A DNA stretch of 64,000 nt from Candidatus Binatia bacterium (GCA_963664015.2 CAXXLF010000002.1:1184001-1248000); one strand, 5' to 3'; shown: positions 39,947 to 60,657, counted from the first letter of the stretch. The notes: generated by a model not told the origin, from the sequence alone. Numbers and translations are program-made.

Positions 39947-39987
39947 TCCAATATCGTTAACGCTCTTAATGTGGACTCTCAGCACCA

Positions 39988-40406
39988 CTACCAAAACTTC
40001 CACCAACTAGGTTTGTTCCTTCCACATCCCTTGTATTTCTTCTTCACGCATTCACGGGCAAGTTCTTGTGCGGCAGAGATGTCGGTGGGGGTCATCAGTT
40101 TCGCAATAATGTCTCTGTTTTTGGATGCGCTCTTAGATTTCCCAGATGATACGGCAATATTTGCCCACATATGGGCATAGACATAGTCCTGTAAAACACC
40201 TTGTCCCGTGTGGTACATCAAACCCAGATTGAACTGGGCATCGGCATATCCCTGTTCCGCAAGGGGTGTCCATTCACGCAGAGCGGTTGCGTAGTCACCA
40301 CTTTGGGCAGCAGTTAGACCCTTTTGGAAATCAGCACTCCAACTCATCCCGTAATCCCAAGAAGCAGGGCAATCGTCAGGCAGATGGTGGCGGTCAGGTT
40401 TCTCAT
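39988..40406 (-). CDS. Sel1-repeat protein A (1 repeat, GRNKPSWWKFW tail); signal peptide frameshifted
   Basis: MRNLTATICLTIALLLGITG* is out of frame with MSWSADFQKG...ARECVKKKYKGC. Confidence 0.8.
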
Positions 40407-40460
40407 AGGGAAAAGAGTTACACAGAATGGGGGATTTGGGTAGTCAGAATGAGATTATAC

Positions 40461-41708
40461 TCAACACCCTTTGTATTTCTTACGGACGCATTCACGGGCA
40501 AGGTCTTGTGTTTTTTCAAGTTGGGATGGGGTCAATAACTTCGCAACCAAATCTCTCACCTTCTCCCCTCCCTCATATCCATTAGATGCGGCAATATTCC
40601 CCCACATATGGGCATAGACATAGTCCTGGATGACACCTCGTCCCATGCCGTACATCACACCCAGATTGGACTGGGCAACGGCAAGCCCCTGCTTGGCAGC
40701 AAGTCGGTACCACTTCACCGCAGTCTTATAGTTCTGTGGAACACCTTGTCCCTTGGCGTACATCCAACCCAGATTGAACTGAGCCTCGGCATCCCCCTGT
40801 TCGGCAGCAAGTCTGTACCACTTCAGTGCAGTCTTGTAGTCCTGTGGAACACCCTCTCCTTTGCGGTACATCCAACCCAGATTGTTCTGGGCATCGGCAT
40901 CCCCCTGTTCGGCAGAAAGCGTGTACCACTTCACCGCAGCCCTATAGTCCTTTGGCACATTTTGTCCTTTTGCGTACATCAAACCCAGATTGTACTGGGC
41001 ATCGGCATTCCCCTGTTCGGCAGAAAGTCGGTACCACTTCACCGCAGTCTTATAATCCTGTGGGACACCTCGTCCTTTATCGTACATCACACCCAGATTA
41101 TACTGGGCAATGGCAAGCCCCTGTTCGGCAGCAAGTCTGAGCCACTTCACCGCAGTCTTATAGTCCGGTGGAACACCTTGTCCCTTGGCGTACATCAAAC
41201 CCAGATTGGACTGGGCATCGGCATCCCCCTGTTCGGCAGAAAGCGTGTACCACTTCACCGCAGCCCTATAGTCCTTTGGCACACCTTGTCCTTTTGCGTA
41301 CATAAAACCCAGATTGTACTGGGCATCGGCATTCCCCTGTTCGGCAGAAAGTCGGAACCACTTCACCGCAGTCTTATAGTTCTGTGGAACACCTTGTCCC
41401 TTGGCGTACATCCAACCCAGATTGAACTGAGCCTCGGCATCCCCCTGTTCGGCAGCAAGTCGGTACCACTTCACCGCAGTCTTATAGTTCTGTGGAACAC
41501 CCTCTCCTTTGTCGTACATCCAACCCACATTGTACTGGGCCTCGGCATATCCCTGTTCGGCAAGGGGTGTCCATTCACGCAGAGCAGTTGCGTAGTCTTT
41601 CTTGTTGTACGCATCCCATCCCTTCTGGAAGTCAGCACTCCACGACATCCCCGCACTTCCAAGAAGCACGGCAATGGTCAGGCAGATGGTGGCGGTCAGA
41701 CGTTTCAC
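40461..41708 (-). CDS. Secreted Sel1-repeat protein B (9 repeats)
   Basis: Signal peptide, nine 36-aa AQxNLGxMYxxGxGVPQDYxxAxKW units and ARECVRKKYKGC cap. Confidence 0.93.
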   Translation of the reverse strand: MKRLTATICLTIAVLLGSAGMSWSADFQKGWDAYNKKDYATALREWTPLAEQGYAEAQYNVGWMYDKGEGVPQNYKTAVKWYRLAAEQGDAEAQFNLGWMYAKGQGVPQNYKTAVKWFRLSAEQGNADAQYNLGFMYAKGQGVPKDYRAAVKWYTLSAEQGDADAQSNLGLMYAKGQGVPPDYKTAVKWLRLAAEQGLAIAQYNLGVMYDKGRGVPQDYKTAVKWYRLSAEQGNADAQYNLGLMYAKGQNVPKDYRAAVKWYTLSAEQGDADAQNNLGWMYRKGEGVPQDYKTALKWYRLAAEQGDAEAQFNLGWMYAKGQGVPQNYKTAVKWYRLAAKQGLAVAQSNLGVMYGMGRGVIQDYVYAHMWGNIAASNGYEGGEKVRDLVAKLLTPSQLEKTQDLARECVRKKYKGC

Positions 41709-41762
41709 AGGGAAAAGAGTTACACAGAATGGGGGATTTGGGTAGTCAGAATTGAATTATAC

Positions 41763-41910
41763 TCAACACCCTTTGCATTTCTTACGGACGCACTCACGGG
41801 CAAGTCTCTGTGCTTCTGCGATTTGGGTAGGGGTCATTTGTTTCGCAACCATGTCTTGCAACTTCATTCCCTTCTTACTCCCATTGGACGCACCTAGGTT
41901 TCCCCACATA
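41763..41910 (-). pseudogene. Sel1 gene C-terminal remnant
   Basis: MWGNLGASNGSKKGMKLQDMVAKQMTPTQIAEAQRLARECVRKKCKGC*; cut off 15 bp from the tRNA-Ser 3' end. Confidence 0.85.
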
Positions 41911-41925
41911 AAGGTTGGGAAGTCG

Positions 41926-42016
41926 TGGCAGAGGGGGAGGGATTCGAACCCCCGTTACCCAATGGGCAACCTTGATTTCGAGTCAAGCGCCTTCAAGCGG
42001 GCTCGGCCACCTCTCC
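41926..42016 (-). tRNA. tRNA-Ser(CGA), possibly degenerate
   Basis: GGAGAGG acceptor, CTTGA-CTCGAAA-TCAAG anticodon arm, long variable arm, TTCGAAT T loop and GCCA end. One A-C acceptor mismatch and no GG in the D loop. Confidence 0.75.
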
Positions 42017-42165
42017 CCAATGAAATTGACAACTCCCAGCTTTGTGTAAATCAAATCTATCATTCTATCTTATATTTGATAACACTAAAGGCAGAAGGCT
42101 TACTACCGATAGAACCAACCAAATAATATGAATAGTAGTAGTAATAAAATGGAGGGATTAGAAGG

Positions 42166-43332
42166 ATGATAAGCAGCAGGACTGTGGCCGTCTTGGTGAT
42201 TTTAATATTATCCGGAGTCACTTTGAGTTTCGGGGAATCTATCTATGTTTCTCATAGATTAGAAAATTTGGTCCCTAAGCCAGAAGGAAGTAGACGTGCA
42301 ACGAATCGACATGCAATGATTCCCTTACCAGAAGTTCCATTCAATGTTGATCGACGAATTTTATCTCATAACCGACCGGCTCGTGAGTATGACAAGCCCT
42401 ACCACGGACCTATGATTGATATGCACGTCCACCTAAAATCTAGGTTCCGTAAGCAAACACCCCTCAGAGCTTTGGGTGAGGTTATTGATGGAATTCGCGA
42501 AGCAGGAATAGACCTAGCGATTGTAACGCCTACACCCAATGAGGGACGAAGAAGAGGTGGAAACGAAAAACACCGCTTATACAGAAAGTTACTTAAAGAA
42601 CTCGGTGAGGGAACGATCAAGCTTATGTGCTGCGGCAACTATATAGGTCAATGGATCCATAATGCTTATTACGAGACCTATACAAAGAATAGTTTGTATT
42701 CACTTCTACAGAGAATCAACATGGATCTTGATAGCGGATTATACATTGGTGTCGGTGAGTTGGGGTTATATCATTTCAACAAGAGTGGAAGACAAATGAC
42801 TATTCGATACCCACCAAATTTTGAACCATTTGTGAAAGTAGTAGAAACAATCGCAAATAAGGGGTACTGGATCCTACTGCATGCAGAAACCGTTGATCCA
42901 AATGGAGTATCCTATGAAGAAACGTTTTTCTCTGGCATTGAGCTACTTTATAAACGAATTCCAAATCTCAAATTAATTATTGCCCACACGTCGACCACTA
43001 ATCCTGACAATGTGCGCAGCATGCTCCATCAGTATCCAAATCTCATGATAGATTTTAAGATTGTTAAAAAACTAAAATACTGGTGGTACACAGAACCTGT
43101 GAATAACGCAAATAGAGAATTACATGAGGATTGGGCTAATCTATTTGAGTCAATGCCTAAACGATTTATGGTAGGTACTGATAGGAAATTTTATCGCCGT
43201 CGCATGAATGCTAAAAAATACATAAGAAAAAATAACCGGTTGAGAAATATACTAGGGACATTGAATTCGAATGCCGCACAATTGATTGCTTACGGAAATG
43301 CTAAAAGATTATTTAGTAAAGCTAATCCTTGA
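42166..43332 (+). CDS. Secreted amidohydrolase/TatD-like TIM-barrel protein (AT-rich)
   Basis: Signal peptide, IDMHVH, GVGELG, LLHAE, IIAH and FMVGTD. Confidence 0.8.
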   Translation: MISSRTVAVLVILILSGVTLSFGESIYVSHRLENLVPKPEGSRRATNRHAMIPLPEVPFNVDRRILSHNRPAREYDKPYHGPMIDMHVHLKSRFRKQTPLRALGEVIDGIREAGIDLAIVTPTPNEGRRRGGNEKHRLYRKLLKELGEGTIKLMCCGNYIGQWIHNAYYETYTKNSLYSLLQRINMDLDSGLYIGVGELGLYHFNKSGRQMTIRYPPNFEPFVKVVETIANKGYWILLHAETVDPNGVSYEETFFSGIELLYKRIPNLKLIIAHTSTTNPDNVRSMLHQYPNLMIDFKIVKKLKYWWYTEPVNNANRELHEDWANLFESMPKRFMVGTDRKFYRRRMNAKKYIRKNNRLRNILGTLNSNAAQLIAYGNAKRLFSKANP

Positions 43333-43416
43333 ACTTGAGAATAGAGTGGTAATAGACAGGCCGTGGACCAGCTGAACGATGTGGAAAAGGTTAAAACTGA
43401 GGATCAGCCTCAGAGT

Positions 43417-43436
43417 GGTCACAAAACGGTCACAAA
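43417..43436. repeat. Tandem GGTCACAAA direct repeat (integrase arm-type site-like)
   Basis: GGTCACAAAacGGTCACAAA, preceded by the hairpin CTGAGG-atcag-CCTCAG. Confidence 0.45.
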
Positions 43437-43555
43437 CCGATTGGAGAGAGAGTCAGACTATGTCTAAGGCACTCTGAAAGTGTCTCTATGAGGAGATTTG
43501 GAGGTTTGGGGAGGGGTTCTATGGGACTGCGAGGATGGATTATGAGGGGGTTTTC

Positions 43556-44265
43556 TCAACACCCCTTGTAGTTCTTCTTCACGCATTCACGGGCAAGTCT
43601 CTGTGCGGTTTCAATTTGGGATGGGTTCATCCGTTTGGCAATGATGTCTCTGTTTTTAGATGCGTCCTTACTGTCCGCCGATGTTGCGGCGATGTTGTAC
43701 CACATATGGGCTTGAACATAGTCTTGCGGTACACCCTGACCTTCACCATACATGTACCCCAGATTGTACTGGGCAAGGGCATGCCCCTGTCCGGCAGCAA
43801 GTCTGAACCACTTCACCGCAGTCTTATAGTCCTGTGGAACACCCTCTCCTTTGTCGTACATCCAACCCACATTGTACTGGGCCTTGGCAAATCCCTGGTC
43901 GGCAGCAAGTCTGAACCACTTCAGTGTAGTCTTGTAGTCCTGTGGAACACCCTCTCCTTTGCCGTACATCCAACCCAGATTGTTCTGGGCATCGGCATCC
44001 CCCTGTTCGGCAGCAAGTCTGTACCACTTCAGTGCAGTCTTGTAGTCCTGTGGAACACCCTCTCTTTTGCGGTACATCCAACCCAGATTGTTCTGGGCAT
44101 CGGCATCCCCCTGTTCGGCAAGGGATTTCCATTCACGCAGAGCGGTTGCGTAGTCACCACTTTGGAGAGCAGTTAGACCCTTTTGGAAATCAGCACTCCA
44201 ACTCATCCCGTAATCCCAAGAAGCACGGCAATCGTCAGGTAGATGGTGGCGGTCATGTTTCTCAT
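43556..44265 (-). CDS. Sel1-repeat protein C (4 repeats); signal peptide frameshifted as in gene A
   Basis: MRNMTATIYLTIAVLLGITG* precedes MSWSADF... in another frame; ends ARECVKKNYKGC. Confidence 0.82.
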
Positions 44266-44319
44266 AGGGAAAAGAGTTACATAGAATGGGGGATTTGGGT
44301 AGTCAGAATTGAATTATAC

Positions 44320-44364
44320 TCAACACCCTTTGTATTTCTTACGTACGCATTCACGGGCAAGTTT
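44320..44364 (-). pseudogene. Sel1 C-terminal remnant (KLARECVRKKYKGC*)
   Basis: 45 bp matching the 3' ends of the intact paralogues. Confidence 0.8.
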
Positions 44365-44407
44365 CTAGAACTTCAGTGATTTGAAGCAAAACACACATTC
44401 CTAACTA

Positions 44408-45046
44408 TTATCTCAACCCTAGGACTTTTTCCCTCATCGCCTTTCGTTCCTCATCGTTAATGAGGGATTTTTCGTACATATCTTCTATGCGTTGAAGTTC
44501 CGTTTCTTGTCCCGAGGTTTCTTCCACTACCTTGTCCTCGGCTTCGGGCTCAATTGCCCACGACTTCCAAAGTGACGCCAGCGCCACTTGCAAGGGGGAG
44601 AGCGCCGGAACTTGCCTCGGTGTTTGTGATTCTCCATCAGATTTAGCGGGGATATCAATTCCCAACTTGGCAATCACATCTTTCAATTCCCTCTTATCCA
44701 CATCTCTGCCGATGAAACGACACAGTTGATCATCAAAAGAAGACGCACTGGCACAAGAAACAGCGTGGTAACCTTTGGAAATAAGTTCTTTGATATACAA
44801 TTTGTTATAAATAAAACCAAATACCAGATTATTCAAAAAAACAAACACTGGTTCGTTCGGTGCTAAGTTGGAAACAACCGCCCCGGTAATACAGGATAAA
44901 AAGGCGACAATTGCCGCCCACTTCCAATCACGACGGACAACCATCGGAAGGAAACTCCAAAATAGTGCGGTATAAGAAAACCCTACTGGCGCAGATTTTA
45001 CCTCTCCCGTGTTGTCGTTTTTAAAGGTGATTACAGCACTTGCCAT
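44408..45046 (-). CDS. Membrane protein, HrgC/DUF2628-like N-terminus plus C-terminal SHOCT domain
   Basis: KSAPVGFSYTALFWSFLPMVVRRDW...YNKLYIKELISKGY; ELQRIEDMYEKSLINDEERKAMREKVL. Confidence 0.7.
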   Translation of the reverse strand: MASAVITFKNDNTGEVKSAPVGFSYTALFWSFLPMVVRRDWKWAAIVAFLSCITGAVVSNLAPNEPVFVFLNNLVFGFIYNKLYIKELISKGYHAVSCASASSFDDQLCRFIGRDVDKRELKDVIAKLGIDIPAKSDGESQTPRQVPALSPLQVALASLWKSWAIEPEAEDKVVEETSGQETELQRIEDMYEKSLINDEERKAMREKVLGLR

Positions 45047-45104
45047 TTTTTCCTTTCTGAAGGTTAAGTTGCCTACTTATTTCCCACTATTTATCTTAAA
45101 AAGA

Positions 45105-45146
45105 GCAATCGTCAGGCAGATGGTGGCGAGGGTACGTTTCATAGGG
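45105..45146 (-). pseudogene. Sel1 gene N-terminal remnant (MKRTLATICLTIA)
   Basis: CCCTATGAAACGTACCCTCGCCACCATCTGCCTGACGATTGC matches the paralogue starts, then diverges. Confidence 0.78.
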
Positions 45147-45242
45147 AGAGTCTGACAAAAGGCGGGGGATTAAGAAAGAGAAAACTTAATTTCCCTATCG
45201 CGGACTCATGTAATTCAATAATCCGCATACTTTGAATAATAT

Positions 45243-45500
45243 TTAAAACTGGAAAACTAAGTTATTGATGTTCTTAGAAGGTCTAGTTCTTCCACCCATG
45301 TTGGTGCCGCAATGTCCGCACACCATAATGTCTCTTAAAATGTAGAAGTGAGTAGGTCTGTTTACTTGTCCCTTCCGTTTCAAGTGACTCACTCGTCGTT
45401 GCTGGACATTGTGGTAGACAGTCTTGTCAACCAACCTTGGACATGAGACTTCCGCAGGTTCCTCTGTCTTAGAATCTGTAAACACATATCTGCCGTTATA
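45243..45500 (-). pseudogene. Large serine recombinase internal fragment (recombinase domain end plus zinc ribbon)
   Basis: YNGRYVF...CPRLVDKTVYHNVQQRR...YILRDIMVCGHCGTNMGG. Confidence 0.65.
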
Positions 45501-45941
45501 GTATATGTTGCTCGACGTGCCTATTGTAGTGGTAAATGCGAATGCACTTCCAGCAGTCGAGTATCCAAGACAACTCGTCGTTTTTGAAACATCCACGATC
45601 CCTTGGATCGGATAACCTGATCCTCGCTACGTCCGACTGCATATAAACTTGTTCTTCCTGTTTCCGTGGTCCGGTAAACGACGAATTTTGATCGTACCGA
45701 TGCAGCATTACCTTGAAATTCAATCTGTATATTAGATACAAGATGTAGCCGCCTAGCTGTGTCAAGCACGTAGTTGGGGACCAGATCCATCCTTTTCACA
45801 AACTCGTTCCTTGTGAGTTTCATTACGTAATCGTCGATACCGCCGAGTTCTTTGCTTTCAAACAGCATCTCGTACTCTGATGTCGCAGTAAATAGGCCAG
45901 TCCATTCCCTGATTTGTCCTTCGTCGAGCAACTGAGCGGCT
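45424..45941. repeat. 518-bp direct repeat, copy 1 (5'-truncated oxygenase beta-subunit gene 45521-45941)
   Basis: Matches 52794-53311 at an offset of 7370 with 7 substitutions. Confidence 0.95.
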
Positions 45942-45998
45942 TGCCTTCGGCGCCTTATGAAGCCTTATGCCCCTCTTGTAATCGTAGGCATGAATACC

Positions 45999-48865: not shown

Positions 48866-48979
48866 TATTCTACCCTCCTCATTAATATTTGCCTCCAGAA
48901 CCAGCGGGGGTCCGCCAGTCCCAGTGCAGTTAATTTAAAAACACCATCATTTCATTCGCTTTGTTTTAGAAACTTCTCC

Positions 48980-51054: not shown

Positions 51055-51195
51055 CTTCCCTCCATTTAAAATACAAATTTTGGGTCTTCTTGACCGCTCT
51101 TCCCCATCACCTTCATCTAAACCATTTTCTCCCATAGACTTCCATGGGAACAGATGCTCCCGCCGAAATCGTCCTTTGCTTTCCCCGTGCCGTCT

Positions 51196-52638: not shown

Positions 52639-52793
52639 TGATTATCCATCTCCTCCGCAAATGCCACCCACCTGACCGTAGAAATGCTTAAGTCCATAAG
52701 AGAATTCCCAAAACACTTTTGAGGGCACAGTATCGACTCTCTGCCTTAAGTGATTTTCGTCTATTTCACGCTTATATTACACCATTTCAAAGA

Positions 52794-53311
52794 TTGTCAA
52801 CCAACCTTGGACATGAGACTTCCGCAGGTTCCTCTGTCTTAGAATCTGTAAACACATATCTGCCGTTATAGTATGTGTTGCTCGACGTGCCTATTGTAGT
52901 GGTAAATGCGAATGCACTTCCAGCAGTCGAGTATCCAAGACAACTCGTCGTTTTTGAAACATCCACAATCCCTTGAATCGGATAACCTGATCCTCGCTAC
53001 GTCCGACTGCATACAAACTTGTTCTTCCTGTTTCCGTGGTCCGGTAAACGACGAATTTTGATCGTACCGATGCAGCATTACCTTGAAATTCAATCCGTAT
53101 ATTAGATACAAGATGTAGCCGCCTAGCTGTGTCAAGCACGTAGTTGGGGACCAGATTCATCCTTTTCACAAGCTCGTTCCTTGTGAGTTTCATTACGTAA
53201 TCGTCGATACCGCCGAGTTCTTTGCTTTCAAACAGCATCTCGTACTCTGATGTCGCAGTAAATAGGCCAGTCCATTCCCTGATTTGTCCTTCGTCGAGCA
53301 ACTGAGCGGCT
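52794..53311. repeat. 518-bp direct repeat, copy 2
   Basis: Matches 45424-45941. Confidence 0.95.
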
Positions 53312-53370
53312 CTAAAAAGCAACTCTTCTACAGCGCGATAGGGGGACAGGTCTGATCGTGTCTTTGCCAT
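52891..53370 (-). CDS. Aromatic ring-hydroxylating oxygenase beta subunit (NTF2 fold)
   Basis: LLFRAAQLLDE...WTGLF, RRLHLVSN, SKFVVYRT and FQKRRVVLD. Confidence 0.82.
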   Translation of the reverse strand: MAKTRSDLSPYRAVEELLFRAAQLLDEGQIREWTGLFTATSEYEMLFESKELGGIDDYVMKLTRNELVKRMNLVPNYVLDTARRLHLVSNIRIEFQGNAASVRSKFVVYRTTETGRTSLYAVGRSEDQVIRFKGLWMFQKRRVVLDTRLLEVHSHLPLQ

Positions 53371-53599
53371 GGTAAAACTTGCTAGGTTCAAGTGCGTACA
53401 GTTGACCCAGCGACTTATAGTTCTGATCCGCAGGCCGTGTCAAGGTCTAGTAAGCTGACGTTGGATTATACCAGGTGGCATTTTACTTTTTGATATATTA
53501 CAGTACTCAAGTTTTCACCTTTGGTACGTAGATTTGTTAGAGATTAAACACCTGGTGCCAGGGGGACTCAGTAGATATAGTATGAATGGAGGGCGTCTT

Positions 53600-54829
53600 A
53601 TGGGTGATCGGAGTCAAGGAATCGGACCCGAGAGGGTCCCTAATCTACCACGGACCCATTTCATTGATACTCGGATTTACACCGACCCAAACCTCTTCGA
53701 AGAGGAACGCTCAAGGATCTTTGCCAACGTTTGGAATTTTGTGGGTCATGAGAGTGAGATACCGAGGCCCGGGTGCTTCCGGACAGTGACCATCGCGGGT
53801 TTCCCCATACTGGTAGTTCGCCAAGAGGACGGTGGCGTCCGGGGTTTTTACAATATTTGCAGGCATCGTCAGGCACAGGTGGTGAGATCATGTAGTGGGC
53901 AGAGCAAGTCATTCCAGTGCTTCTATCATTTGTGGACCTATGGATTAGATGGACGGCTTTTGGGTGTCACGTTACCAGAGGGCTACAAGGATACAGGTTT
54001 CAACGTTGCTGATTTTGGATTGAGGGAGATCCGAGTGGAGTTGGTAGCGGGCTTAATCTTTGTATGTCTCAGTGACGAGACCGTAACTCTTCGGGAGTAT
54101 TTGGGTGAAGTTGCTTCGGTACTCGAAAAGTATGCGCCCCCTGAGGGGTTTGAGGTGTTTCACTACCACCAGGCAGAGATCAAGACCAATTGGAAGCTTT
54201 TTTTCGAGAACAATTCGGAAAGATATCATACGGCGCTACATTGGGCTCACAGAAACCGGGCGAATTGGGGTAAGCCCGGCGGACCTGCCGATGGGTGGAT
54301 ATTTGTGGGTAATGGCCACAATTATACCCCGTTTAATCGTGGAAAACACATGGGGCGAAGCAAGAATATTGGCCTTGAGGAAAGGGATCGATTTACTTTA
54401 CCGGGGCACCAGGGGAATGTTACGAGCTCTCATCATCTGTTCCCAGATGTGCTCCTAGTCACGATTTCAACAGTCCTAAGAATTGATCATCTCATACCTT
54501 TAAGTCCAGGTCGCACGTTAGTCGAGTGGCGCGGACTTGGAGTGAAAGGCGAGGCAGCGGATGTACGTGCTCTCCGAGTTAAACATCATAATGAGTTTTG
54601 GGGCTATTCAGGCTCTAATTTGCCCGAGGATATTACCGCTGCAGAATCCCAATGGCCAATGATGGCATCAGGAGCGGTAAGGTATAGTATCGTGGCGAGA
54701 GAAGGAAATGCCTTCAGCGACGAATCCTTGCGACACTACTATAAAGAGTGGAGTCGCCGTATGGGGCGGCAATATTGGGACCCCTTTGGAGAGATTGATG
54801 GCGCAGCTACAGTTGGGTCAGAAGTGTAA
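53600..54829 (+). CDS. Rieske aromatic ring-hydroxylating oxygenase alpha subunit
   Basis: NICRHR and CFYHLWTY Rieske ligands; NWKLFFENNSERYH..LH and ED mononuclear iron ligands. Confidence 0.92.
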   Translation: MGDRSQGIGPERVPNLPRTHFIDTRIYTDPNLFEEERSRIFANVWNFVGHESEIPRPGCFRTVTIAGFPILVVRQEDGGVRGFYNICRHRQAQVVRSCSGQSKSFQCFYHLWTYGLDGRLLGVTLPEGYKDTGFNVADFGLREIRVELVAGLIFVCLSDETVTLREYLGEVASVLEKYAPPEGFEVFHYHQAEIKTNWKLFFENNSERYHTALHWAHRNRANWGKPGGPADGWIFVGNGHNYTPFNRGKHMGRSKNIGLEERDRFTLPGHQGNVTSSHHLFPDVLLVTISTVLRIDHLIPLSPGRTLVEWRGLGVKGEAADVRALRVKHHNEFWGYSGSNLPEDITAAESQWPMMASGAVRYSIVAREGNAFSDESLRHYYKEWSRRMGRQYWDPFGEIDGAATVGSEV

Positions 54830-54911
54830 CTCAAAAATGACTTGGCTACTCTAACTCAAGTATTGAATCTCCATTCTTGTAGAGGCACGCTCGAGTGGGT
54901 TACGACCACCA

Positions 54912-55544
54912 CTACCAAAACTTCCACCAACTAGGTTTGTTCCTTCCACATCCCTTGTATTTCTTCTTCACACATTCACGGGCAAGTTTTTGTGCTTTTT
55001 CAAGTTGGGATGGAGTCATTTTATTCGCAATCCTATCTCTCAACTGCCCCGCTTGCTCACTTCCATTAGACGAAGCAAGGTTCCCCCACATATGGGCATA
55101 GACATAGTCCCGTAGAACACCTCGTCCTTGGAGGTACATCCCACTCAGAAATAACTGGGCATTAGCATACCCCTGTTCGGCAGCAAGTCTGTACCACTTC
55201 GCCGCAGTCTTATAGTCCGGGAGACCGCCTTGTCCAAGATAGTACATCAAACCCAGATTGAACTGAGCATCGGTATTCCCCTGTTCGGCAGCAAGTCTGT
55301 ACCACTTCAGTGCAGTTTCATAGTCCTGTGGAACACCTTCTCCGTTGCGGTACATAAAACCCAGATTGTACTGGGCATCGGCATCCCCCTGTTCAGCAAG
55401 AGGTGTCCATTCACGCAGAGCAGTTGCGTAGTCCCAACTCTGGTATGCAGTTAGACCCTTTGGGAAATCAGCACTCCACGACATCCCCGCACTTCCAAGA
55501 AGCACGGCAATCGTCAGGCAGAGTGTGGCGGTCAGGTTTTTCAT
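54912..55544 (-). CDS. Secreted Sel1-repeat protein D (3 repeats, GRNKPSWWKFW tail)
   Basis: Intact signal peptide, Sel1 units and conserved cap. Confidence 0.92.
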   Translation of the reverse strand: MKNLTATLCLTIAVLLGSAGMSWSADFPKGLTAYQSWDYATALREWTPLAEQGDADAQYNLGFMYRNGEGVPQDYETALKWYRLAAEQGNTDAQFNLGLMYYLGQGGLPDYKTAAKWYRLAAEQGYANAQLFLSGMYLQGRGVLRDYVYAHMWGNLASSNGSEQAGQLRDRIANKMTPSQLEKAQKLARECVKKKYKGCGRNKPSWWKFW

Positions 55545-55598
55545 AGGGAAAAGATTTACATAAAATGGGGATTTGGGGTAGTCAGAATTGAATTATAC

Positions 55599-56201
55599 TC
55601 AACACCCTTTGTATTTCTTACGTACGCATTCACGGGCAAGGTCTTGTGCTTTTTCAATTTGGGATGGAGTCATTTTCTTCGCAACAAAATCTCTCAACCC
55701 CCCCGCTCCCTCATATCCATTAGATACGGCAATGTTCGACCACATATGGGCATAGACATAGTCCTGTAAAACACCTTGTCCCTTGTAGTACATCACACCC
55801 AGATTGGACTGGGCATCGGCATCCCGCTGTTCAGCAGCAAGTCTGTACCACTTCAGTGTAGTCTTGTAGTCCTGTGGAACACCCTCTCCTTTGCCGTACA
55901 TCCAACCCAGACTGTTCTGGGCATCGGCATCCCCCTGTTCGGCAGCAAGTCTGTACCACTTCAATGCAGTTTCATAGTCCTGTGGGACACCTCGTCCTTC
56001 GTGGTACATCAAACCCAGATTGAACTGGGCCTTCGCATCCCCCTGTTCGGCAAGGGGTGTCCATTCACGCAGAGCAGTTGCGTAGTCTTTCTTTTCGTAA
56101 GCGACGAATCCTTTTTGATAGTCATCCGCGTGGGCCGTCACTCCCACGAGCAAGGCGATACCGAGGATTGCGAAAAACAGTTTATGGTGACTTTTGACCA
56201 T
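55599..56201 (-). CDS. Secreted Sel1-repeat protein E (3 repeats, different signal peptide)
   Basis: MVKSHHKLFFAILGIALLVGVTAHA leader fused to the family body. Confidence 0.9.
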   Translation of the reverse strand: MVKSHHKLFFAILGIALLVGVTAHADDYQKGFVAYEKKDYATALREWTPLAEQGDAKAQFNLGLMYHEGRGVPQDYETALKWYRLAAEQGDADAQNSLGWMYGKGEGVPQDYKTTLKWYRLAAEQRDADAQSNLGVMYYKGQGVLQDYVYAHMWSNIAVSNGYEGAGGLRDFVAKKMTPSQIEKAQDLARECVRKKYKGC

Positions 56202-56208
56202 TTCGCCA

Positions 56209-56288
56209 CCATCCTCCTACGTCACAGCCATGCTGTCAAATGCCGGGATTGACGTCCTATGGCTTAGCGTTATAATCCGCGCTGGGGG
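56209..56288. repeat. 80-bp direct repeat, copy 1, with divergent promoter-like signals
   Basis: Matches 61451-61530. Plus strand TTGACG-N16-TATAAT; minus strand TTGACA and AGGAGG. Confidence 0.85.
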
Positions 56289-56629
56289 CCTGCCCACCCC
56301 TAGCGCGAATAAATCCGCCTGGTGGCAATACATATTAGGGTAGGCCCGAAACAATTATCGATGTTGGAACAAATATTACGCAGAGGGCAAAAGAGAATGA
56401 GCAAAAACGCAAAATATGAAATCTCCAAAGTCACCCGGGGTTGCCCTGGTCCGCCCAATGATGCTTTCGGAAATCCGCCGCTAGTCGATCGTAGTTTGTC
56501 AATCTCTACGTACGAAAGTCGTTCTTCCCCCTCTTTCTGCCTTTTAAGATATGAAAATACTTGAGTGTTTCTCCATTGGTTTCCTTTGCTCGCACTTATA
56601 GTATATGCAAGAAACGGATAGGGTGTTGG

Positions 56630-59011
56630 ATGGATCAGATAACCTCTGCGAATTGCTGGAAAGACTTTGAGCAATCCCTTGAATCTCTCGGGGATAAGGA
56701 GAAAGGTGACGCATTTGAAGAACTGACCCACCTTCATCTTCTAACTGACCCAACGTTTTCCACCAAGCTTAAGAATGTTTGGCACCACTCCGTTGTTCCT
56801 CAGCTAATAGTCGACGAACTTGGGTTGCAACGACCTGAGATCGGTGTGGATCTTGTAGCACAAGACCGAGACGGCAAATACTGGGCAATTCAGTGCAAGT
56901 TTCATCAGGACAGAACTAGGAATGTTAGATATGAAGAACTAAACAGTTTCTTCAGTCTTACTGAACGGGATAAAACGTATCAAAAACTCTCTCATCGACT
57001 GGTATGTACCTCAGCAAATGGGGTCAGTCCTGCAGTCAATAAGGTGCATGGAGAAAAACTTGGTTATCTCACCTCCTTAGAATTCTCAAAACTCGGTCAG
57101 GAGGAGTTTGATGCCTTTAGAAAGTTTCTCGCCGGAGGTCATCCTGTACCGGAACCCAAGGTTCCACGAAAGCACCAAGGAGTTGCATTGGACAAATGCG
57201 AGACCTTCTTCAAAGACCCAAACAATACCCGTGGAAAACTTATTCACCCATGCGGGTCGGGTAAAAGTCTCATTGGATACTGGGCCTCTCAGAGACTGAA
57301 CGCAAAGACCGTCCTGATTGCCGTCCCTAGTCTTGCATTGGTTCGTCAGACGTTGGGTGATTGGACACGAGAGGCAGTAGCAAACGGAATCAATATGGAC
57401 TGGATCGCCGTTTGTAGTGATGATGATGTTTCGAATTCTGATGACCCTGCAATGCAATCTGTCGATCTTGGAATTGAAGTTGATACAGATCCAGAGATCA
57501 TTTCTAGTTTTCTTCGAAAACCATCAACAGGAACGAAGATAGTTATTACGACATACCAGAGCGCCCTTGCAGTTAGTGAGAGTGCCCAGAAGGCAGGGAC
57601 CGTATTCGACCTTGGTGTCTACGATGAAGCACATAAGACCGTTGGACAAAAAGACAAAGCATTCGCTCATCTTCTCTATGATAAGAATGTCGAGGTCAGG
57701 AAACGGGTTTTTATGACTGCTACAGAACGTCAGTTCCAAGGGAACTCTGACGAATACCTATCGATGAATGATGAAGGTATCTATGGAACGATTATTGATG
57801 AACTATCATTCAAGGCGGCGTTGGCACAAGATCCACCAATTGTCAGCGACTATAAGATCGTTTCAACGATTGTTACAGAATCAGAAATAAAAGAACTTAT
57901 AGATAATAACAAGTTTGTTAAATGCGATGGAAAAGAGTGGACGATTGAAGGTGATGCATCGACCTTAACGTCACTGATTGTACTTAGAAAATTGATCAGA
58001 GACCGTGATCTTAAACATGTTGTCTCCTTTCATAGCAGCATCAAACGATCCCGCGATTTTCAGAAACTTAATTCAGATTTTAATAAAGGGGATGGTACCT
58101 TTGATGATCTGACTTCTTTTCATGTTTCGGGGAAAGATAGTACCGGAATTCGAGCGCAGGAGCTTGAGCGGTTTGTAAATGTTGAACCGAGTTTGATTAC
58201 CAATGCACGGTGTTTAACGGAAGGTGTTGATGTTCCGGCAATTGATGCCGTTCTCTTTGCGGATCCAAAGCAGAGTAAAATTGATATTGTTCAGGCAGCG
58301 GGACGTGCATTGCGGAGATTCGATGGTAAGGACTTCGGGTATATCATCGTCCCCGTAGTTTTGGATGAAGAGTCAGAAGACCCAAGTGATGATGCCTTCA
58401 AGCAGATCATTACAGTAATATCTGCACTTGGGATGAGTGATGACCGGATCATTGATGAGTTTAGGACAATCGCAAATGGGGGGAATCCTGGTAAGGAAAG
58501 AATAAATGATATCGTTCTCCCTGAGATCTACCGAGCGAAGTTTGCGCACTTGATTTCAAATATTGGAATTCGAATCTGGGATCGTTTGAGTTTTGGTTGG
58601 GCAAAGGGGTTTGAAAAATTAAAGAGGTATGTGGAACAGAACGATAATCCCCGAGTTCACAACCGTTACACCGATGAGGATGGGTTCAAATTAGGTGGTT
58701 GGGTTAGCAATCGGCGCATGGAGTACAGAAAAGGAAAGTTGGCACGGGATCGTATTCAACAATTAGAATCGATTAAAGGTTGGGTCTGGGATCCGATCGA
58801 AGCGGACTTTCAAGAGGGTTTGGAGAAACTAAAGAGGTATGTGGAACAGAACGATAATCCCCGAGTTCCTACTAGTTACACCGATGAGGATGGGTTCAAA
58901 TTAGGTACTTGGATTAACAATCGGCGCATGGAGTACAAAAACGGACAGTTGGAACCGGATCGTATTCAACAATTAGAATCGATTAAAGGTTGGGTCTGGA
59001 AGTCGCGGTAG
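56630..59011 (+). CDS. Mrr-like nuclease - SF2 DEAH helicase - two helicase-associated (HA) domains
   Basis: GVDLVA..YWAIQCK, HPCGSGKS, DEAH, TATER, LTEGVDVP, QAAGRALR and two 70-aa W-rich repeats (210-bp duplication). Confidence 0.85.
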   Translation: MDQITSANCWKDFEQSLESLGDKEKGDAFEELTHLHLLTDPTFSTKLKNVWHHSVVPQLIVDELGLQRPEIGVDLVAQDRDGKYWAIQCKFHQDRTRNVRYEELNSFFSLTERDKTYQKLSHRLVCTSANGVSPAVNKVHGEKLGYLTSLEFSKLGQEEFDAFRKFLAGGHPVPEPKVPRKHQGVALDKCETFFKDPNNTRGKLIHPCGSGKSLIGYWASQRLNAKTVLIAVPSLALVRQTLGDWTREAVANGINMDWIAVCSDDDVSNSDDPAMQSVDLGIEVDTDPEIISSFLRKPSTGTKIVITTYQSALAVSESAQKAGTVFDLGVYDEAHKTVGQKDKAFAHLLYDKNVEVRKRVFMTATERQFQGNSDEYLSMNDEGIYGTIIDELSFKAALAQDPPIVSDYKIVSTIVTESEIKELIDNNKFVKCDGKEWTIEGDASTLTSLIVLRKLIRDRDLKHVVSFHSSIKRSRDFQKLNSDFNKGDGTFDDLTSFHVSGKDSTGIRAQELERFVNVEPSLITNARCLTEGVDVPAIDAVLFADPKQSKIDIVQAAGRALRRFDGKDFGYIIVPVVLDEESEDPSDDAFKQIITVISALGMSDDRIIDEFRTIANGGNPGKERINDIVLPEIYRAKFAHLISNIGIRIWDRLSFGWAKGFEKLKRYVEQNDNPRVHNRYTDEDGFKLGGWVSNRRMEYRKGKLARDRIQQLESIKGWVWDPIEADFQEGLEKLKRYVEQNDNPRVPTSYTDEDGFKLGTWINNRRMEYKNGQLEPDRIQQLESIKGWVWKSR

Positions 59012-59203
59012 GCATCCAATCCTAATGAAAGTCTCAGACACCCAAGAGTTCGTTAGGAGAATATTCTATTCCCACAGCGAATAGGTTAATGCGTACTTGG
59101 GTGACTTTAGACGCTACAAACGCAATGCCAACTAGCAAATACGCTATAAGTGCGACGCCATAGATTGAACCAGTTAGAAACCACTCCAAAATACCCTGCA
59201 AGC

Positions 59204-59694
59204 TCAACACCCTTTGTATTTCTTACGGACGCATTCACGGGCAAGTTTATGTGCTTCAGCGATTTGGGCAGGGGTCATCAGTTTCGCAATAATGTCTCTG
59301 TTTTTGGATGCGCTCTTAGATTTCCCAGATGATGCGGCAATATTCGTCCACATATGGGCATAGACATAGTCCTGTGGAAGACCTTGTCCTTCTTTATACA
59401 TCCAACCCAGATTGAGCTGGGCAACGGCAATTCCCTGTTCGGCAGCCAGTCTGTACCACTTCACCGCAGTCTTATAGTCCTGGAGAACACCTAGTCCTTC
59501 ATCGTACATCCAACCCAGATTGTACTGGGCCTTGGCACCCCCCTGTTCGGCAGCCAGTCTGTACCACTTCACCGCAGCCTTATAATTCTGTCGAATGCGG
59601 CACGTCCCTTCTGGAAGTCAGCACTCCACGACATCCCCGCACTTCCAAGAAGCACGGCAAGGGTCAGGCAGATGGTGGCGGTCAGGTTTCTCAT
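59204..59694 (-). pseudogene. Sel1-repeat gene F with an out-of-frame internal deletion at ~59590
   Basis: MRNLTATICLTLAVLLGSAGMSWSADFQKGRAAFD is joined out of frame to QNYKAAVKWYRL...; two repeats and the cap remain. Confidence 0.85.
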
Positions 59695-59748
59695 AGGGGA
59701 AAGAGTTACATAGAATGGGGGATTTGGGTAGACAGAATGGAATTCTAC

Positions 59749-60564
59749 TCAACACCCCTTGTAGTTTTTCTTCACGCAATCACGGGCAAGGTCTTGTGCT
59801 TTTTCAAGTTGGGATGGGGTCATTTTCTTCGCAACCAAATCTCTCAACTCCCCCCCTCTCTCATATCCATTAGATGAAGCAAGGTTCCCCCACATATGAG
59901 CATAGACAGAGTCCAGTGGAACACCTAGTCCTTGGTGGTACATCACACCCAGATTGAACTGGGCAGTGGCATATCCCTGTTCGGCTGCAAGTCTGTACCA
60001 CTTCACCGCAGTCTTATAGTCCTGTGGAACACCTTCTCCCCTGCGGTACATCAAACCCAGATTGTTCTGGGCCTTGGCATGTCCCTGTCCGGCAGCAAGT
60101 CTGTACCACTTCACCGCAGTCTTATAGTCCTGTGGAACACCTTCTCCATTATCGTACATCAAACCCAGATTGTACTGGGCATTGGCAAATCCCTGTTTGG
60201 CAGCAAGTGTCCACCACTTCACCGCAGTCTTATAGTCCTGTATAACACCTTGTCCCTTGTAGTACATCACACCCAGACTGTACTGGGCAGAGGCCTGCCC
60301 CTGTTCGGCAGCAAGTCGGTACCACTCCACCGCAGTCTCATAGTCCTGTGGAACACCCTCTCCTTTGTCGTACATCAAACCCAGAAAGAGCTGGGCAGCG
60401 GCATCTCCCTGCTCGGCAAGGGGTGTCCATTCACGCAGAGCAGTTGCGTAGTCGCCACTATCGTATGCGGTAACTCCCTTTTGTAAATCAGCACTCCAAC
60501 TCACCCCCGTACTTCCAAGAAACACGGCAATCGTCAGGCAGATGGTGGCGGTCAGGTTTCTCAT
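59749..60564 (-). CDS. Secreted Sel1-repeat protein G (5 repeats)
   Basis: Intact signal peptide, five units and ARDCVKKNYKGC. Confidence 0.93.
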   Translation of the reverse strand: MRNLTATICLTIAVFLGSTGVSWSADLQKGVTAYDSGDYATALREWTPLAEQGDAAAQLFLGLMYDKGEGVPQDYETAVEWYRLAAEQGQASAQYSLGVMYYKGQGVIQDYKTAVKWWTLAAKQGFANAQYNLGLMYDNGEGVPQDYKTAVKWYRLAAGQGHAKAQNNLGLMYRRGEGVPQDYKTAVKWYRLAAEQGYATAQFNLGVMYHQGLGVPLDSVYAHMWGNLASSNGYERGGELRDLVAKKMTPSQLEKAQDLARDCVKKNYKGC

Positions 60565-60618
60565 CGGGAAAAGAGTTACATAGAATGGGGGATTTGGGTA
60601 GTCAGGATGGAGTTCTAC

Positions 60619-60657
60619 TCAACATCCTTTGTATTTCTTACGGACGCATTCACGGGC
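60619..60657 (-). pseudogene. Sel1 C-terminal remnant (ARECVRKKYKGC*)
   Basis: 39 bp matching the paralogue 3' ends. Confidence 0.8.

What the first reader, a model, noticed from the sequence alone, without database searches (positions are those of the whole stretch)
39988..60657. Shuffled repertoire of secreted Sel1-repeat proteins built from 108-bp modules (candidate natural binder library)
Seen: seven genes with 1, 9, 4, 3, 3, >=2 and 5 repeats plus four remnants, all on the minus strand, near-identical in DNA and mosaic. B repeat 7 is nearly identical to C repeat 1 (DADAQNNLGWMYRK..YKTALKW). C repeat 2 resembles E repeat 2 (WMYGKGEG..KTTLKW), and B repeat 1 resembles C repeat 3 (YNVGWMYDK). 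The cap SSGKSKSASKNRD is shared by A and F, the SNGYE cap by B, E and G, and the GRNKPSWWKFW tail by A and D. Variation concentrates at a few positions of a fixed scaffold (xAxAQ[YFSNL][NSF]LG[WFLVY]MY-xx-G[EQRL]G). Established: Sel1-like repeats are alpha/alpha solenoids that bind partners on their concave face. Inference: recombination or gene conversion among modules generates a DARPin/VLR-like set of exported binding proteins, with unknown targets such as phage, predator or host molecules. This is my best candidate for an undescribed system.
Basis: partly seen in the sequence, partly recalled or inferred. Interest (0 to 1): 0.85.

Follow-up and report, generated by a model that had tools for sequence, protein, structure and literature searches.

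The report
Island-borne Sel1-repeat protein gene family
A mobile genomic island in a marine bacterium carries seven related genes for Sel1-repeat binding proteins, four intact and three broken, which have exchanged repeat modules by ordinary recombination; this is a common kind of gene family and not a new diversity-generating system.

Summary
Seven minus-strand ORFs (1, 9, 4, 3, 3, 2 and 5 repeats) all pass Pfam's Sel1 cut-off and are built from 108-bp units. The quoted module, cap and tail similarities are real.

The copies are not near-identical. Mean module identity is 75.7%, and only 15 of 351 pairs reach 90%. Only four genes (B, D, E, G) are intact with a signal peptide. A and C share a 1-nt frameshift, and F has an out-of-frame deletion.

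Paralogue recombination is supported (PHI p=0.0002 on the C-terminal segment; mosaic gene A). Programmed diversification is not. The genome has no reverse transcriptase, the region has no useful inverted repeats, and there is no clear excess of non-synonymous change. The variable positions are the same ones that vary in 700 modules from 79 foreign loci.

New context: all seven genes lie in a 34.6-kb island integrated at tRNA-Val, with a tyrosine integrase. The closest homologue, 82% identical in DNA, is a foreign-looking gene in an Alphaproteobacteria MAG.

Verdict: an ordinary, horizontally mobile SLR paralogue family.

The parts
38842..38890 (-). 49-nt perfect copy of the 3' part of tRNA-Val(CAC). 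It is the distal direct repeat (att remnant) of the island. The full tRNA lies outside the window at window-equivalent 73505-73581.
   Evidence: blastn-short gives 100% over 49 nt to C2:1257503-1257551, and ARAGORN calls tRNA-Val(cac) at C2:1257505-1257581.
38891..64000 (.). The window's part of a 34,612-bp integrative genomic island, which continues to window-equivalent 73502. The island holds all seven Sel1 genes. Its GC is 49.4% against 53.6% for the genome.
   Evidence: Direct repeats. A tyrosine integrase, a PrimPol/AAA_25 primase and type I R-M genes lie next to tRNA-Val.
39488..39946 (+). Small HTH protein with a weak resolvase-type HTH_7 match and no catalytic domain. It sits at the island's distal end and has a 78% DNA paralogue on contig C1.
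39988..40406 (-). Gene A. It has one Sel1 repeat, a type-1 cap (SSGKSKSASKNRD) and a read-through tail (GRNKPSWWKFW). A 1-nt deletion puts the signal-peptide codons (40348-40406) out of frame, and the open frame starts at 40347.
40461..41708 (-). Gene B, 415 aa. It has a signal peptide, an N-cap, nine Sel1 repeats and a type-2 cap ending in C-x7-C. It is intact.
   Evidence: (E 2e-113, 9 stretches).
41763..41909 (-). Remnant R1. It is the C-terminal cap of a lost gene, cut inside its last repeat, 16 nt from the tRNA-Ser.
41926..42016 (-). tRNA-Ser(CGA), a second copy carried by the island. The other copy is at C1:260901-260992.
43556..44265 (-). Gene C. It has four repeats and a type-1 cap. 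It carries the same 1-nt signal-peptide frameshift as A, and the open frame starts at 44206.
44266..44361 (-). Remnant upstream of C. It consists of the last ~44 nt of a cap (LARECVRKKYKGC*) plus the conserved ~52-nt spacer. Weaker, degenerate similarity continues ~25 nt further upstream.
   Evidence: (94.8% over 96 nt).
45424..45941 (.). First copy of a 518-bp, 98.6%-identical direct repeat. The second copy is at 52794-53311. The pair brackets a 6.9-kb catabolic and transport cluster that separates the C group from the E-D group.
54912..55544 (-). Gene D, 210 aa. It has a signal peptide, three repeats, a type-2 cap and the same read-through tail as A. It is intact.
55599..56201 (-). Gene E, 200 aa. 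Its signal peptide and upstream region differ from the others. It has three repeats and a type-2 cap, and it is intact.
56561..59011 (+). Mrr-nuclease/helicase restriction-type gene (low GC) that separates E-D from G-F.
59204..59694 (-). Gene F, broken. The signal peptide and start of the N-cap (59569-59694) are joined out of frame to two repeats plus a type-1 cap (59204-59572).
59749..60564 (-). Gene G, 271 aa. It has a signal peptide, five repeats and a type-2 cap, and it is intact. This is the protein modelled with AF2.
60565..60657 (-). Remnant upstream of G, made of the cap end (ARECVRKKYKGC*) plus the conserved spacer.
   Evidence: 88% over 92 nt.

Best explanation
This is a lineage-specific paralogue family of Sel1-like-repeat (SLR) proteins. 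It is carried as cargo on a 34.6-kb genomic island integrated at tRNA-Val.

Each gene has the common bacterial SLR architecture. A Sec-type signal peptide is followed by a half-repeat N-cap, n x 36-aa helix-turn-helix repeats, a modified last repeat (YVYAHMW), and a C-terminal capping helix that ends in C-x7-C. I infer that the two cysteines form a disulfide outside the cytoplasm.

The genes were multiplied head to tail as units made of a conserved spacer plus a gene. Repeat numbers then changed by tandem duplication and unequal crossing-over within the 108-bp register. Segments were occasionally exchanged between copies by homologous recombination or gene conversion at the most conserved stretches (the AAEQG junction and the LARECV box).

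The arrays were later split by insertions, and several copies decayed: A, C and F, four remnants in the window, and copy I elsewhere.

I infer that the four intact products (B, D, E, G) are exported alpha-solenoid adaptors. They would bind protein or peptide partners through the variable face of helix 1, as other bacterial SLR proteins do. Their targets are unknown.

Diversity arises by ordinary evolutionary processes and horizontal transfer, not by a dedicated mechanism.
For: - Family and fold: 7 of 7 genes exceed the Pfam Sel1 cut-off. The AF2 model of G has pLDDT 93.7 and 14 helices. Foldseek's top hits are LpnE, EsiB, Oxalobacter Sel1 proteins, LceB and HcpC. phmmer against the PDB gives 1.7e-109 to 6ok3.
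- Head-to-tail units: a 96-nt box plus spacer recurs at 88-100% identity upstream of A, B, C, D and G.
- Whole-gene duplication: the terminal modules form one clade with 100% support. Caps split into type 1 {A,C,F} and type 2 {B,D,E,G,I} with 100% support.
- Intragenic tandem duplication: B3/B6, B2/B8, H3/H4 and H1/H2 are supported sister modules (93-99%).
- Exchange between genes: the clade {E2,C2,C1,B7} has 96% support. B7/C1 share a 129-nt tract with one mismatch that ends in the conserved junction. PHI gives p=0.0002 on segment T and 0.002 on U+T.
- Decay: A and C share a frameshift, F has a deletion, I has a frameshift in a G-run, and the remnants are degenerate.
- Island: a 49-nt perfect tRNA-Val repeat, an integrase, a PrimPol primase and R-M genes, and GC of 49.4% against 53.6% for the genome.
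- Horizontal mobility: family- and order-level relatives reach only 46-62% amino-acid identity to G. An Alphaproteobacteria MAG has a copy at 74% amino-acid and 82% nucleotide identity, including 30 nt of leader. That copy has 53% GC in flanks of 60-64% GC, and transposase genes lie within 3 kb.
- Commonness: 504 relatives were found in species genomes. 20 of 79 fetched loci hold two or more same-strand SLR ORFs. Per-position variability in the window correlates with that of 700 foreign modules (Spearman 0.73).
- No dedicated machinery: the genome has no RVT_1 match, the region has no inverted repeats of note, and the SLR proteins have no PADLOC family.
Against: - Overall dN/dS among internal modules is high for a bacterial gene (0.65). 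At the seven variable codons dN (0.545) exceeds the family-wide dS (0.248). Diversifying selection on the binding face therefore cannot be excluded.
- All three internal modules of the broken gene C have their closest relatives in the intact genes B and E (94-99%). This is the pattern expected if broken copies exchange sequence with expressed ones.
- The A/C frameshift creates an ATGA stop-start overlap, and both ORFs remain open downstream. A and C might therefore be expressed as cytoplasmic forms and not be dead genes.
- Export, the disulfide and partner binding are inferred from sequence. No signal-peptide predictor or experiment was available.
- Repeat-internal structure could not be checked against reads.
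Confidence: 0.72

Rival explanations
1. Gene-conversion-driven variation system. The intact genes are expression sites, and the broken copies and remnants are silent donor cassettes. RecA-type conversion at the conserved junctions keeps producing new binder combinations within a population, as in pilE/pilS or vlsE antigenic variation.
For: - There are 3 N-terminally disabled copies plus 4 remnants beside 4 intact genes.
- C1/B7 are 99.1% identical, and C2 and C3 are closest to modules of the intact genes.
- Breakpoints fall in conserved junctions.
- PHI is significant on the C-terminal segment.
- Variable residues lie on one helix face.
Against: - Mean module identity is only 75.7%, and only 5 of 351 pairs reach 95%. 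Efficient ongoing conversion would keep the scaffolds far more alike.
- The broken copies keep the same upstream spacer as the intact ones and carry a different cap type (type 1) from all intact genes.
- Within-module PHI is weak (p=0.03-0.09).
- Unique segments and their junctions with the Sel1 genes are identical (0-2 differences) in three samples from two studies.
- No nearby recombinase, G4-like element or inverted repeat was found.
Confidence: 0.1
2. Decaying cargo. The family is largely non-functional DNA that hitch-hiked on the island and is being eroded. The apparent 'repertoire' would then have no current role.
For: - Within the window, 3 of 7 genes are broken and 4 remnants are present. 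Copy I elsewhere is frameshifted, and a solo box J has no gene attached.
- dN/dS in recent module pairs is around 1, although the counts are tiny.
- The arrays are interrupted by insertions.
Against: - B, D, E and G keep long open frames (200-415 aa) with every scaffold residue of the SLR consensus.
- Scaffold positions have dN/dS of 0.44, compared with 0.76 at the variable positions.
- The box and spacer upstream of the genes are conserved at 88-100%.
- The AF2 model is confident.
Confidence: 0.1
3. Assembly artefact. The mosaics come from mis-joined repeats in the assembly.
For: Repeats of 108 bp are hard to assemble. The contigs of the four public runs all break inside the Sel1 genes, so the internal order is not independently confirmed.
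Against: - The genome is in 2 contigs.
- Junctions between unique DNA and the Sel1 genes are reproduced without differences in independent runs. Examples are 41746-43836, 44332-45164, 53282-54936 and 58970-59242.
- All ORFs keep the 36-codon register.
- Paralogues differ by 8-27%, which is enough for long reads to tell them apart.
Confidence: 0.03

Closest known systems
Helicobacter pylori slr/hcp gene family (HcpA-E and relatives)
   Same: [quoted passage not shown] Family expansion shows signs of positive selection, and the selected residues lie mostly on protein surfaces (PMC1941758, abstract). The paralogues are partly redundant (PMC3608669, abstract). HcpC (1ouv) is a structural match to G.
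   Different: As I recall, Hcp proteins carry a cysteine pair in every repeat. Here there is a single C-x7-C in the C-terminal cap only. The H. pylori genes are dispersed chromosomal genes. Here the genes are head-to-tail arrays on a tRNA-integrated island, and 3 of 7 are broken.
Solved bacterial SLR proteins: LpnE and LceB (Legionella pneumophila), EsiB/c5321 (uropathogenic E. coli), and six Oxalobacter formigenes Sel1 proteins
   Same: They share the fold and repeat consensus. Foldseek E-values are 1.7e-15 to 1e-11 at 30-39% identity, and phmmer gives up to 1.7e-109. In LceB, helix 1 lines the concave face and a lone C-terminal helix caps the solenoid (PMC10868440, passages). Six different Oxalobacter chains in the PDB show that large SLR families within one genome are known.
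   Different: None of these is an orthologue, since identity is at most 39%. No partner or function can be transferred from them. The Legionella proteins are effectors delivered into host cells, and no such delivery system is linked to the genes here.
MerG and other named periplasmic SLR proteins (ExoR, AlgK, MotX) in NCBIfam
   Same: MerG is the best NCBIfam model for B, C, D, E and G. It aligns from the N-cap to the last residues of the cap (profile 35-214 of 217). It is therefore a small exported SLR protein with the same overall architecture.
   Different: All scores are below the curated cut-off (at most 254.7 against 350 bits). No mer genes are nearby.
Eukaryotic-like repeat proteins (Sel1/TPR/ankyrin) of marine host-associated bacteria
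   Same: Sel1-repeat genes are repeatedly reported as enriched in sponge- and invertebrate-associated bacteria (search listing only, 17 papers). The runs that hold this locus carry two coded organism labels as well as seawater metagenome labels. Many of the closest homologues are in marine MAGs.
   Different: The habitat and any host link of this genome are not established here. I did not read those papers beyond titles and the first lines of abstracts.
Programmed binder or antigen diversification (VLR assembly, pilE/pilS and vlsE cassettes, DGRs) and designed repeat binders (DARPins, consensus TPRs). Mechanisms are recalled, not tested.
   Same: Variable surface positions sit on a fixed repeat scaffold. 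Broken copies lie beside intact ones. Modules have been exchanged between copies.
   Different: No reverse transcriptase. No inverted repeats. No single expression site. The copies are only 73-92% alike. No population-level variation was seen in what could be examined.

Membership tests
Sel1-like repeat (SLR) proteins, Pfam PF08238 | The whole-protein score exceeds Pfam's gathering cut-off (30.7 bits). | tested here: met
   7 of 7 genes, scoring 34.3 to 367.1 bits. Across the whole genome there are 36 matching stretches, 28 of them in the window.
Sel1-like repeat (SLR) proteins, Pfam PF08238 | Repeats of about 36 residues, each forming two antiparallel helices that stack into a solenoid. | tested here: met
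   All successive module starts are exactly 36 codons apart. TRF gives period 108. The AF2 model of G has pLDDT 93.7 with paired helices of 12-13 residues. Foldseek matches solved SLR proteins.
Exported (periplasmic or secreted) bacterial SLR proteins | An N-terminal Sec signal peptide. | tested here: inconclusive
   By inspection only. B, D and G start with M-(K/R)-x-L, a hydrophobic stretch, and S-W-S before AD. E has a different hydrophobic N-terminus. A, C and F lack an in-frame signal peptide. No signal-peptide predictor was available. Residues 1-20 of G have low pLDDT.
Helicobacter cysteine-rich proteins (Hcp) | A cysteine pair (disulfide) in each repeat. This feature is recalled, not taken from a call. 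| tested here: not met
   None of the 27 window modules contains a Cys. The only Cys pair is the C-x7-C at the C-terminal end.
MerG (NCBIfam NF033786, equivalog) | The score exceeds the curated cut-off of 350 bits. | tested here: not met
   The best score is 254.7 bits (B). The others score 102-162 bits.
Diversity-generating retroelement target | A reverse transcriptase in the genome, with template and variable repeat pairs. | tested here: not met
   0 matches to RVT_1 in the genome, which is 97.3% complete. The control search matched in 3 of 14 control genomes.
Shufflon / invertase-driven variation | Inverted repeats flanking invertible segments, with a nearby recombinase. | tested here: not met
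   Only 2 weak inverted pairs (20-25 nt, 76-85% complementary) in 38800-64000. All SLR genes are on one strand. The only recombinase signal is a sub-threshold Zn-ribbon fragment at 45243-45596.
Cassette-based antigenic variation (pilE/pilS-like) | Variants that arise at high frequency within a population by conversion from silent cassettes. | not testable with these tools
   Only assembled contigs of public runs were available, and they break inside the repeats. No raw long reads were available.
Integron-like or precisely bounded gene cassettes | Cassettes with fixed boundaries at a recombination site. | tested here: not met
   Sensitive alignment shows that the remnants upstream of C and I, and the solo box J, extend beyond the box as degenerate sequence. 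The boundaries are therefore not fixed. No integron integrase was found.
tRNA-integrated genomic island | A tRNA gene at one end and a direct repeat of its 3' part at the other end. | tested here: met
   A 49-nt, 100%-identical repeat: window 38842-38890 against C2:1257503-1257551, inside tRNA-Val(cac).
tRNA-integrated genomic island | An integrase next to the tRNA, and base composition that deviates from the genome. | tested here: met
   A Phage_integrase-family ORF ends 96 nt from the tRNA, with a PrimPol/AAA_25 primase beside it. Island GC is 49.4% against 53.6% for the genome.

The most novel reading that the evidence does not exclude
The island carries a horizontally shared 'module pool'. 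Head-to-tail SLR genes, together with their disabled copies, exchange 108-bp modules at the conserved junctions. The same leader-plus-gene units also move between unrelated bacteria of one marine, possibly host-associated, community. Binding specificities would then be reshuffled at the level of the community and not only within one genome. The A/C frameshift with its ATGA stop-start overlap would in addition produce cytoplasmic versions of otherwise exported binders.
Probability: 0.1. Interest if true: 0.65.

Novelty: new member of a known kind. Interest (0 to 1): 0.3.

Why it matters
If the reading is right, the practical value is modest. It documents that SLR ('eukaryotic-like') protein genes can travel as multi-copy arrays on a tRNA-integrated island. 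Near-identical units (82% DNA identity, leader included) occur in a bacterium with a very different base composition. This gives a concrete vehicle for the spread of such genes among marine bacteria.

It also provides a small natural series of one scaffold with 1 to 9 repeats and defined variable positions. That series could serve protein engineers as a consensus-SLR template. It does not reveal a new mechanism for generating diversity.

Tried and rejected
- Cassette or integron idea: three remnants seemed to start at the same nucleotide of the LARECV box, and the box end resembles GTTRRRY. Sensitive alignment showed that the remnants continue as degenerate sequence beyond the box. I dropped the idea.
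- tRNA-Ser as attachment site: no repeat of it was found anywhere in the window.
- Rfam over 38000-62500 found only the tRNA.
- The promoter/terminator scan of 54800-60800 found no consensus promoter in the spacers, and counts were close to those of shuffled sequence.
- PADLOC gave no family for the SLR proteins, apart from a spurious PtuA match with 0 stretches.
- Public runs: no RNA holder is listed.
- The four runs laid are assembled contigs that break inside the repeats. Their joints have short sides (21-51 nt, with one exception). The exception is a 135-nt side explained by the 65-nt identity of the A and D tails. Neither the module order nor the A/C frameshift could therefore be checked.
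- Sister genomes: no same-genus genome is held. The nearest complete family member shares only the radical-SAM gene, with no synteny.
- A metagenome scan anchored on the neighbouring Rieske gene gave 46 loci, at most 82% identical. 0 of 46 have SLR ORFs.
- A literature search for Sel1 plus gene conversion gave one irrelevant paper.
- Mapping variable residues onto coordinates was not possible because model coordinates are not exposed. I used the DSSP helix ranges only.
- PHI and Nei-Gojobori counts are my own scripts, not RDP, GARD or PAML.

Full report
WHAT IS THERE

The region holds seven minus-strand ORFs: A 39988-40347, B 40461-41708, C 43556-44206, D 54912-55544, E 55599-56201, F 59204-59572 and G 59749-60564. 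All seven exceed Pfam's Sel1 cut-off, with 1, 9, 4, 3, 3, 2 and 5 repeat stretches. Tandem Repeats Finder reports period 108 in six of them, with 76-87% matches.

I cut the genes into 36-codon modules. This gave 27 modules in the window, always exactly 36 codons apart. It also showed a common architecture:
- a signal-peptide-like N-terminus;
- a half-repeat N-cap (DYATALREWTPLAEQG);
- internal modules;
- a modified last module (..QDYVYAHMW.NIA..);
- a capping segment that ends ..LARECV.K.YKGC.

The rest of the genome holds two further copies. H is a lipoprotein-like gene with six repeats at C2:934 kb. I has two repeats and lies at C1:659 kb.

CHECK OF THE OBSERVATION

- B7/C1 differ at 1 of 108 nt.
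- C2/E2 and B1/C3 are each 94.4% identical.
- The A and F caps share a 63-nt exact match.
- A and D share their last 65 nt exactly, including the read-through tail.
- The SNGYE cap is present in B, E and G.

Two statements need correction.

First, the copies are not near-identical. The 351 module pairs average 75.7% identity. Only 15 reach 90% and only 5 reach 95%. Gene-level blastn identities are 73-92%.

Second, not all seven encode secreted proteins. A and C share the same 1-nt deletion in a short G-run. This ends the signal-peptide frame (MRNLTATICLTIALLLGITG*) and leaves an ORF starting at MSWSADF. F has an out-of-frame deletion that joins the N-cap to the middle of a repeat. Only B, D, E and G are intact.

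Copy I, on the other contig, is frameshifted in a run of about nine G. I cannot exclude a sequencing error there.

ORGANISATION

Every gene except E is preceded by a conserved spacer of about 52 nt. The spacer is itself preceded by the last ~44 nt of a cap (LARECVRKKYKGC*). This cap end belongs either to the previous gene or to a remnant. The genes are therefore head-to-tail units in four groups: R1-B-A, remnant-C, E-D and remnant-G-F.

The groups are separated by unrelated DNA:
- an amidohydrolase-like gene and a tRNA-Ser;
- a 6.9-kb transport and aromatic-catabolism cluster bracketed by 518-bp direct repeats;
- a Rieske oxygenase gene;
- an Mrr-nuclease/helicase gene.

I tested whether the remnants mark fixed cassette boundaries, as in an integron. 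They do not. Sensitive alignment shows degenerate cap or spacer sequence beyond the box in three of the four cases.

THE ISLAND

At window 38842-38890 there is a 49-nt perfect copy of the 3' part of tRNA-Val(CAC). The full gene lies 34.6 kb away at C2:1257505-1257581, beyond the window's end.

Next to that tRNA lie a tyrosine integrase (ending 96 nt from the tRNA), a PrimPol/AAA_25 primase and a type I restriction-modification system. The 34,612 bp between the repeats have 49.4% GC, against 53.6% for the genome. They also carry a second copy of tRNA-Ser(CGA).

All seven window genes therefore sit in a classical tRNA-integrated genomic island, which appears to be composite.

RECOMBINATION

In the module tree, the terminal modules form one clade (100%). 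This shows that whole genes were duplicated.

Several supported sister pairs are within one gene: B3/B6 (99%), B2/B8 (99%), H3/H4 (99%) and H1/H2 (93%). These indicate tandem duplication inside genes. One supported clade joins modules from three genes, at different positions in each: {E2, C2, C1, B7} at 96%.

The B7/C1 tract is 129 nt with one mismatch, and it ends in the conserved AAEQG junction.

Gene A is a mosaic. Its upstream region and N-terminus are closest to C (94.1%). Its last module and cap are closest to F (85.5%). Its last 65 nt are identical to D, whose cap is otherwise only 75% like A's.

My own implementation of the PHI test gave the following:

| Alignment | p |
|---|---|
| Terminal module + cap (8 copies, 69 informative sites) | 0.0002 |
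| N-terminal segment alone | 0.13 |
| N- and C-terminal segments joined | 0.002 |
| Within internal modules | 0.03-0.09 |

Exchange between paralogues is thus supported. It looks like occasional homologous recombination at conserved stretches, not frequent shuffling.

SELECTION

Amino-acid variation concentrates at module positions 1, 3, 6, 10, 13, 14 and 16. By the DSSP ranges of the AF2 model, these lie on helix 1 of each repeat. In the LceB structure paper, helix 1 lines the concave face (PMC10868440, passages).

Nei-Gojobori counts over the 20 internal window modules gave these dN/dS values:

| Codons | dN/dS |
|---|---|
| All | 0.65 |
| 29 scaffold codons | 0.44 |
| 7 variable codons (their own dS of 0.71) | 0.76 |

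dN at the variable codons (0.545) exceeds only the family-wide dS (0.248). Recent module pairs have ratios around 1, but with just 0-4 synonymous and 1-11 non-synonymous differences each. I therefore see no clear excess of non-synonymous change.

The same positions are the most variable ones in 700 modules taken from 79 loci of other organisms (Spearman 0.73). Some positions in that set were fixed by my search pattern. The pattern of variable positions on a fixed scaffold is therefore a general property of this SLR family.

RELATIVES AND TRANSFER

No genome of the same genus is held. Family- and order-level relatives have SLR proteins only 46-62% identical to G, whereas the paralogues within this genome are 62-77% identical to G.

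Among 185,579 species genomes there are 504 relatives, in many phyla. The best is in a MAG labelled Alphaproteobacteria:
- 74% amino-acid identity over all 271 residues;
- 82% DNA identity over the whole gene plus 30 nt of the leader;
- gene GC of 53% in flanks of 60-64% GC;
- a DDE transposase gene and an rve-type integrase-core gene within 3 kb.

Foreign modules are 84-90% identical in DNA to the window's modules. That is as close as many of the window's own paralogous modules are to each other.

20 of the 79 fetched loci hold two or more same-strand SLR ORFs. Arrays with differing repeat numbers are therefore common.

WHAT COULD NOT BE SETTLED

Public runs hold the locus. Four runs contain at least half of the sampled words. 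They come from three samples and two studies, under two coded organism labels. Seawater metagenomes hold smaller shares.

Only assembled contigs were available. The unique segments are reproduced with 0-2 differences, as are their junctions with R1, C, the remnant upstream of C, D and F. The contigs break inside the repeats, however. Neither the internal module order, the frameshifts nor within-population rearrangement could be examined.

A metagenome scan anchored on the neighbouring Rieske gene found no strain-level relative, and none of the 46 loci has SLR genes. The nearest complete relative shares no synteny.

MECHANISM AND COMPARISON WITH KNOWN FAMILIES

The genome has no reverse transcriptase. 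The region has no inverted repeats of note. The SLR proteins match no defence-system family. No recombinase is present apart from a sub-threshold Zn-ribbon fragment and the island's own integrase.

The closest described situation is the H. pylori slr/hcp family. It comprises eight or nine secreted SLR paralogues, with positive selection during family expansion and selected residues on protein surfaces (PMC1941758, abstract). The closest structures are LpnE, EsiB, Oxalobacter Sel1 proteins, LceB and HcpC. The best NCBIfam model is MerG, below its cut-off.

I conclude that this is a new member of a known kind: an island-borne, horizontally mobile SLR paralogue family. It has diversified by duplication, unequal crossing-over and occasional conversion, and it is partly decayed. 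Export, the C-x7-C disulfide and partner binding through the variable helix-1 face are inferences from sequence and from what is known of the fold.

Noticed in passing
window 45424-45941 and 52794-53311: A 518-bp direct repeat (98.6% identical) brackets a 6.9-kb cluster: ABC permease, solute-binding protein, bicupin dioxygenase, DHDPS-like gene and UbiD-like decarboxylase. The repeat duplicates part of a ring-hydroxylating beta-subunit/SnoaL-like gene. Public-run contigs break exactly at these repeats.
   Followed up: partly
window 45243-45596 (-): The ORF has a weak, sub-threshold match to the recombinase zinc-ribbon domain (E 2e-4, 22 bits against a cut-off of 25.3). It may be a scar of a large serine recombinase next to the repeat.
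   Followed up: partly
window 60747-61112 (-): A 121-aa ORF with a signal-peptide-like start and three copies of a motif like NP(F/L)GRYGSQLSPESP. It has no Pfam, NCBIfam or PADLOC family. It lies directly upstream of the remnant before gene G.
   Followed up: partly
window 62252-63601 (-) and beyond (L139:2-2248): The type I restriction R subunit seems split. A 749-aa N-terminal ORF and a 449-aa C-terminal ORF overlap, and both match domain 3. This suggests a frameshift or a sequencing error. hsdS and hsdM follow intact.
   Followed up: no
window 44408-45046 (-): A 212-aa ORF of low GC with predicted hydrophobic stretches and no family. The only hit is a faint one to a putative T1SS effector family (E 5.5e-4, far below cut-off).
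   Followed up: no
G000:C2:931004-931053: A solitary copy of the cap-end box (FARECVRKKYKGC*), followed by a degenerate spacer and no Sel1 gene. It lies 3.5 kb from the lipoprotein-type SLR gene H.
   Followed up: partly
G000:C1:659154-659740: SLR copy I has the same leader and an upstream degenerate cap remnant. It is frameshifted in a G-run and lies about 4 kb from tRNA-Ser(TGA). It may mark a second island. The small HTH gene of the island also has a 78% DNA paralogue at C1:196746-197426.
   Followed up: no
window 37112-38750: The B12-binding radical-SAM gene just outside the island is 89% identical in protein (86.5% in DNA) to one in a genome of another genus (G002). Nothing around it is syntenic, which suggests that this gene was also transferred.
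   Followed up: partly
window 20032-21633, 27322-28920, 51196-52638: Three UbiD-family decarboxylase genes lie in one 64-kb window. With them are several Amidohydro_2 genes, an aldehyde:ferredoxin oxidoreductase gene and cupin genes. The neighbourhood is rich in aromatic-compound metabolism.
   Followed up: no
window 40348-40352 and 44207-44211: The shared A/C frameshift makes the stop of the 20-codon leader ORF overlap the ATG of the downstream ORF (ATGA). This arrangement can allow translational coupling. Both downstream ORFs remain open.
   Followed up: no
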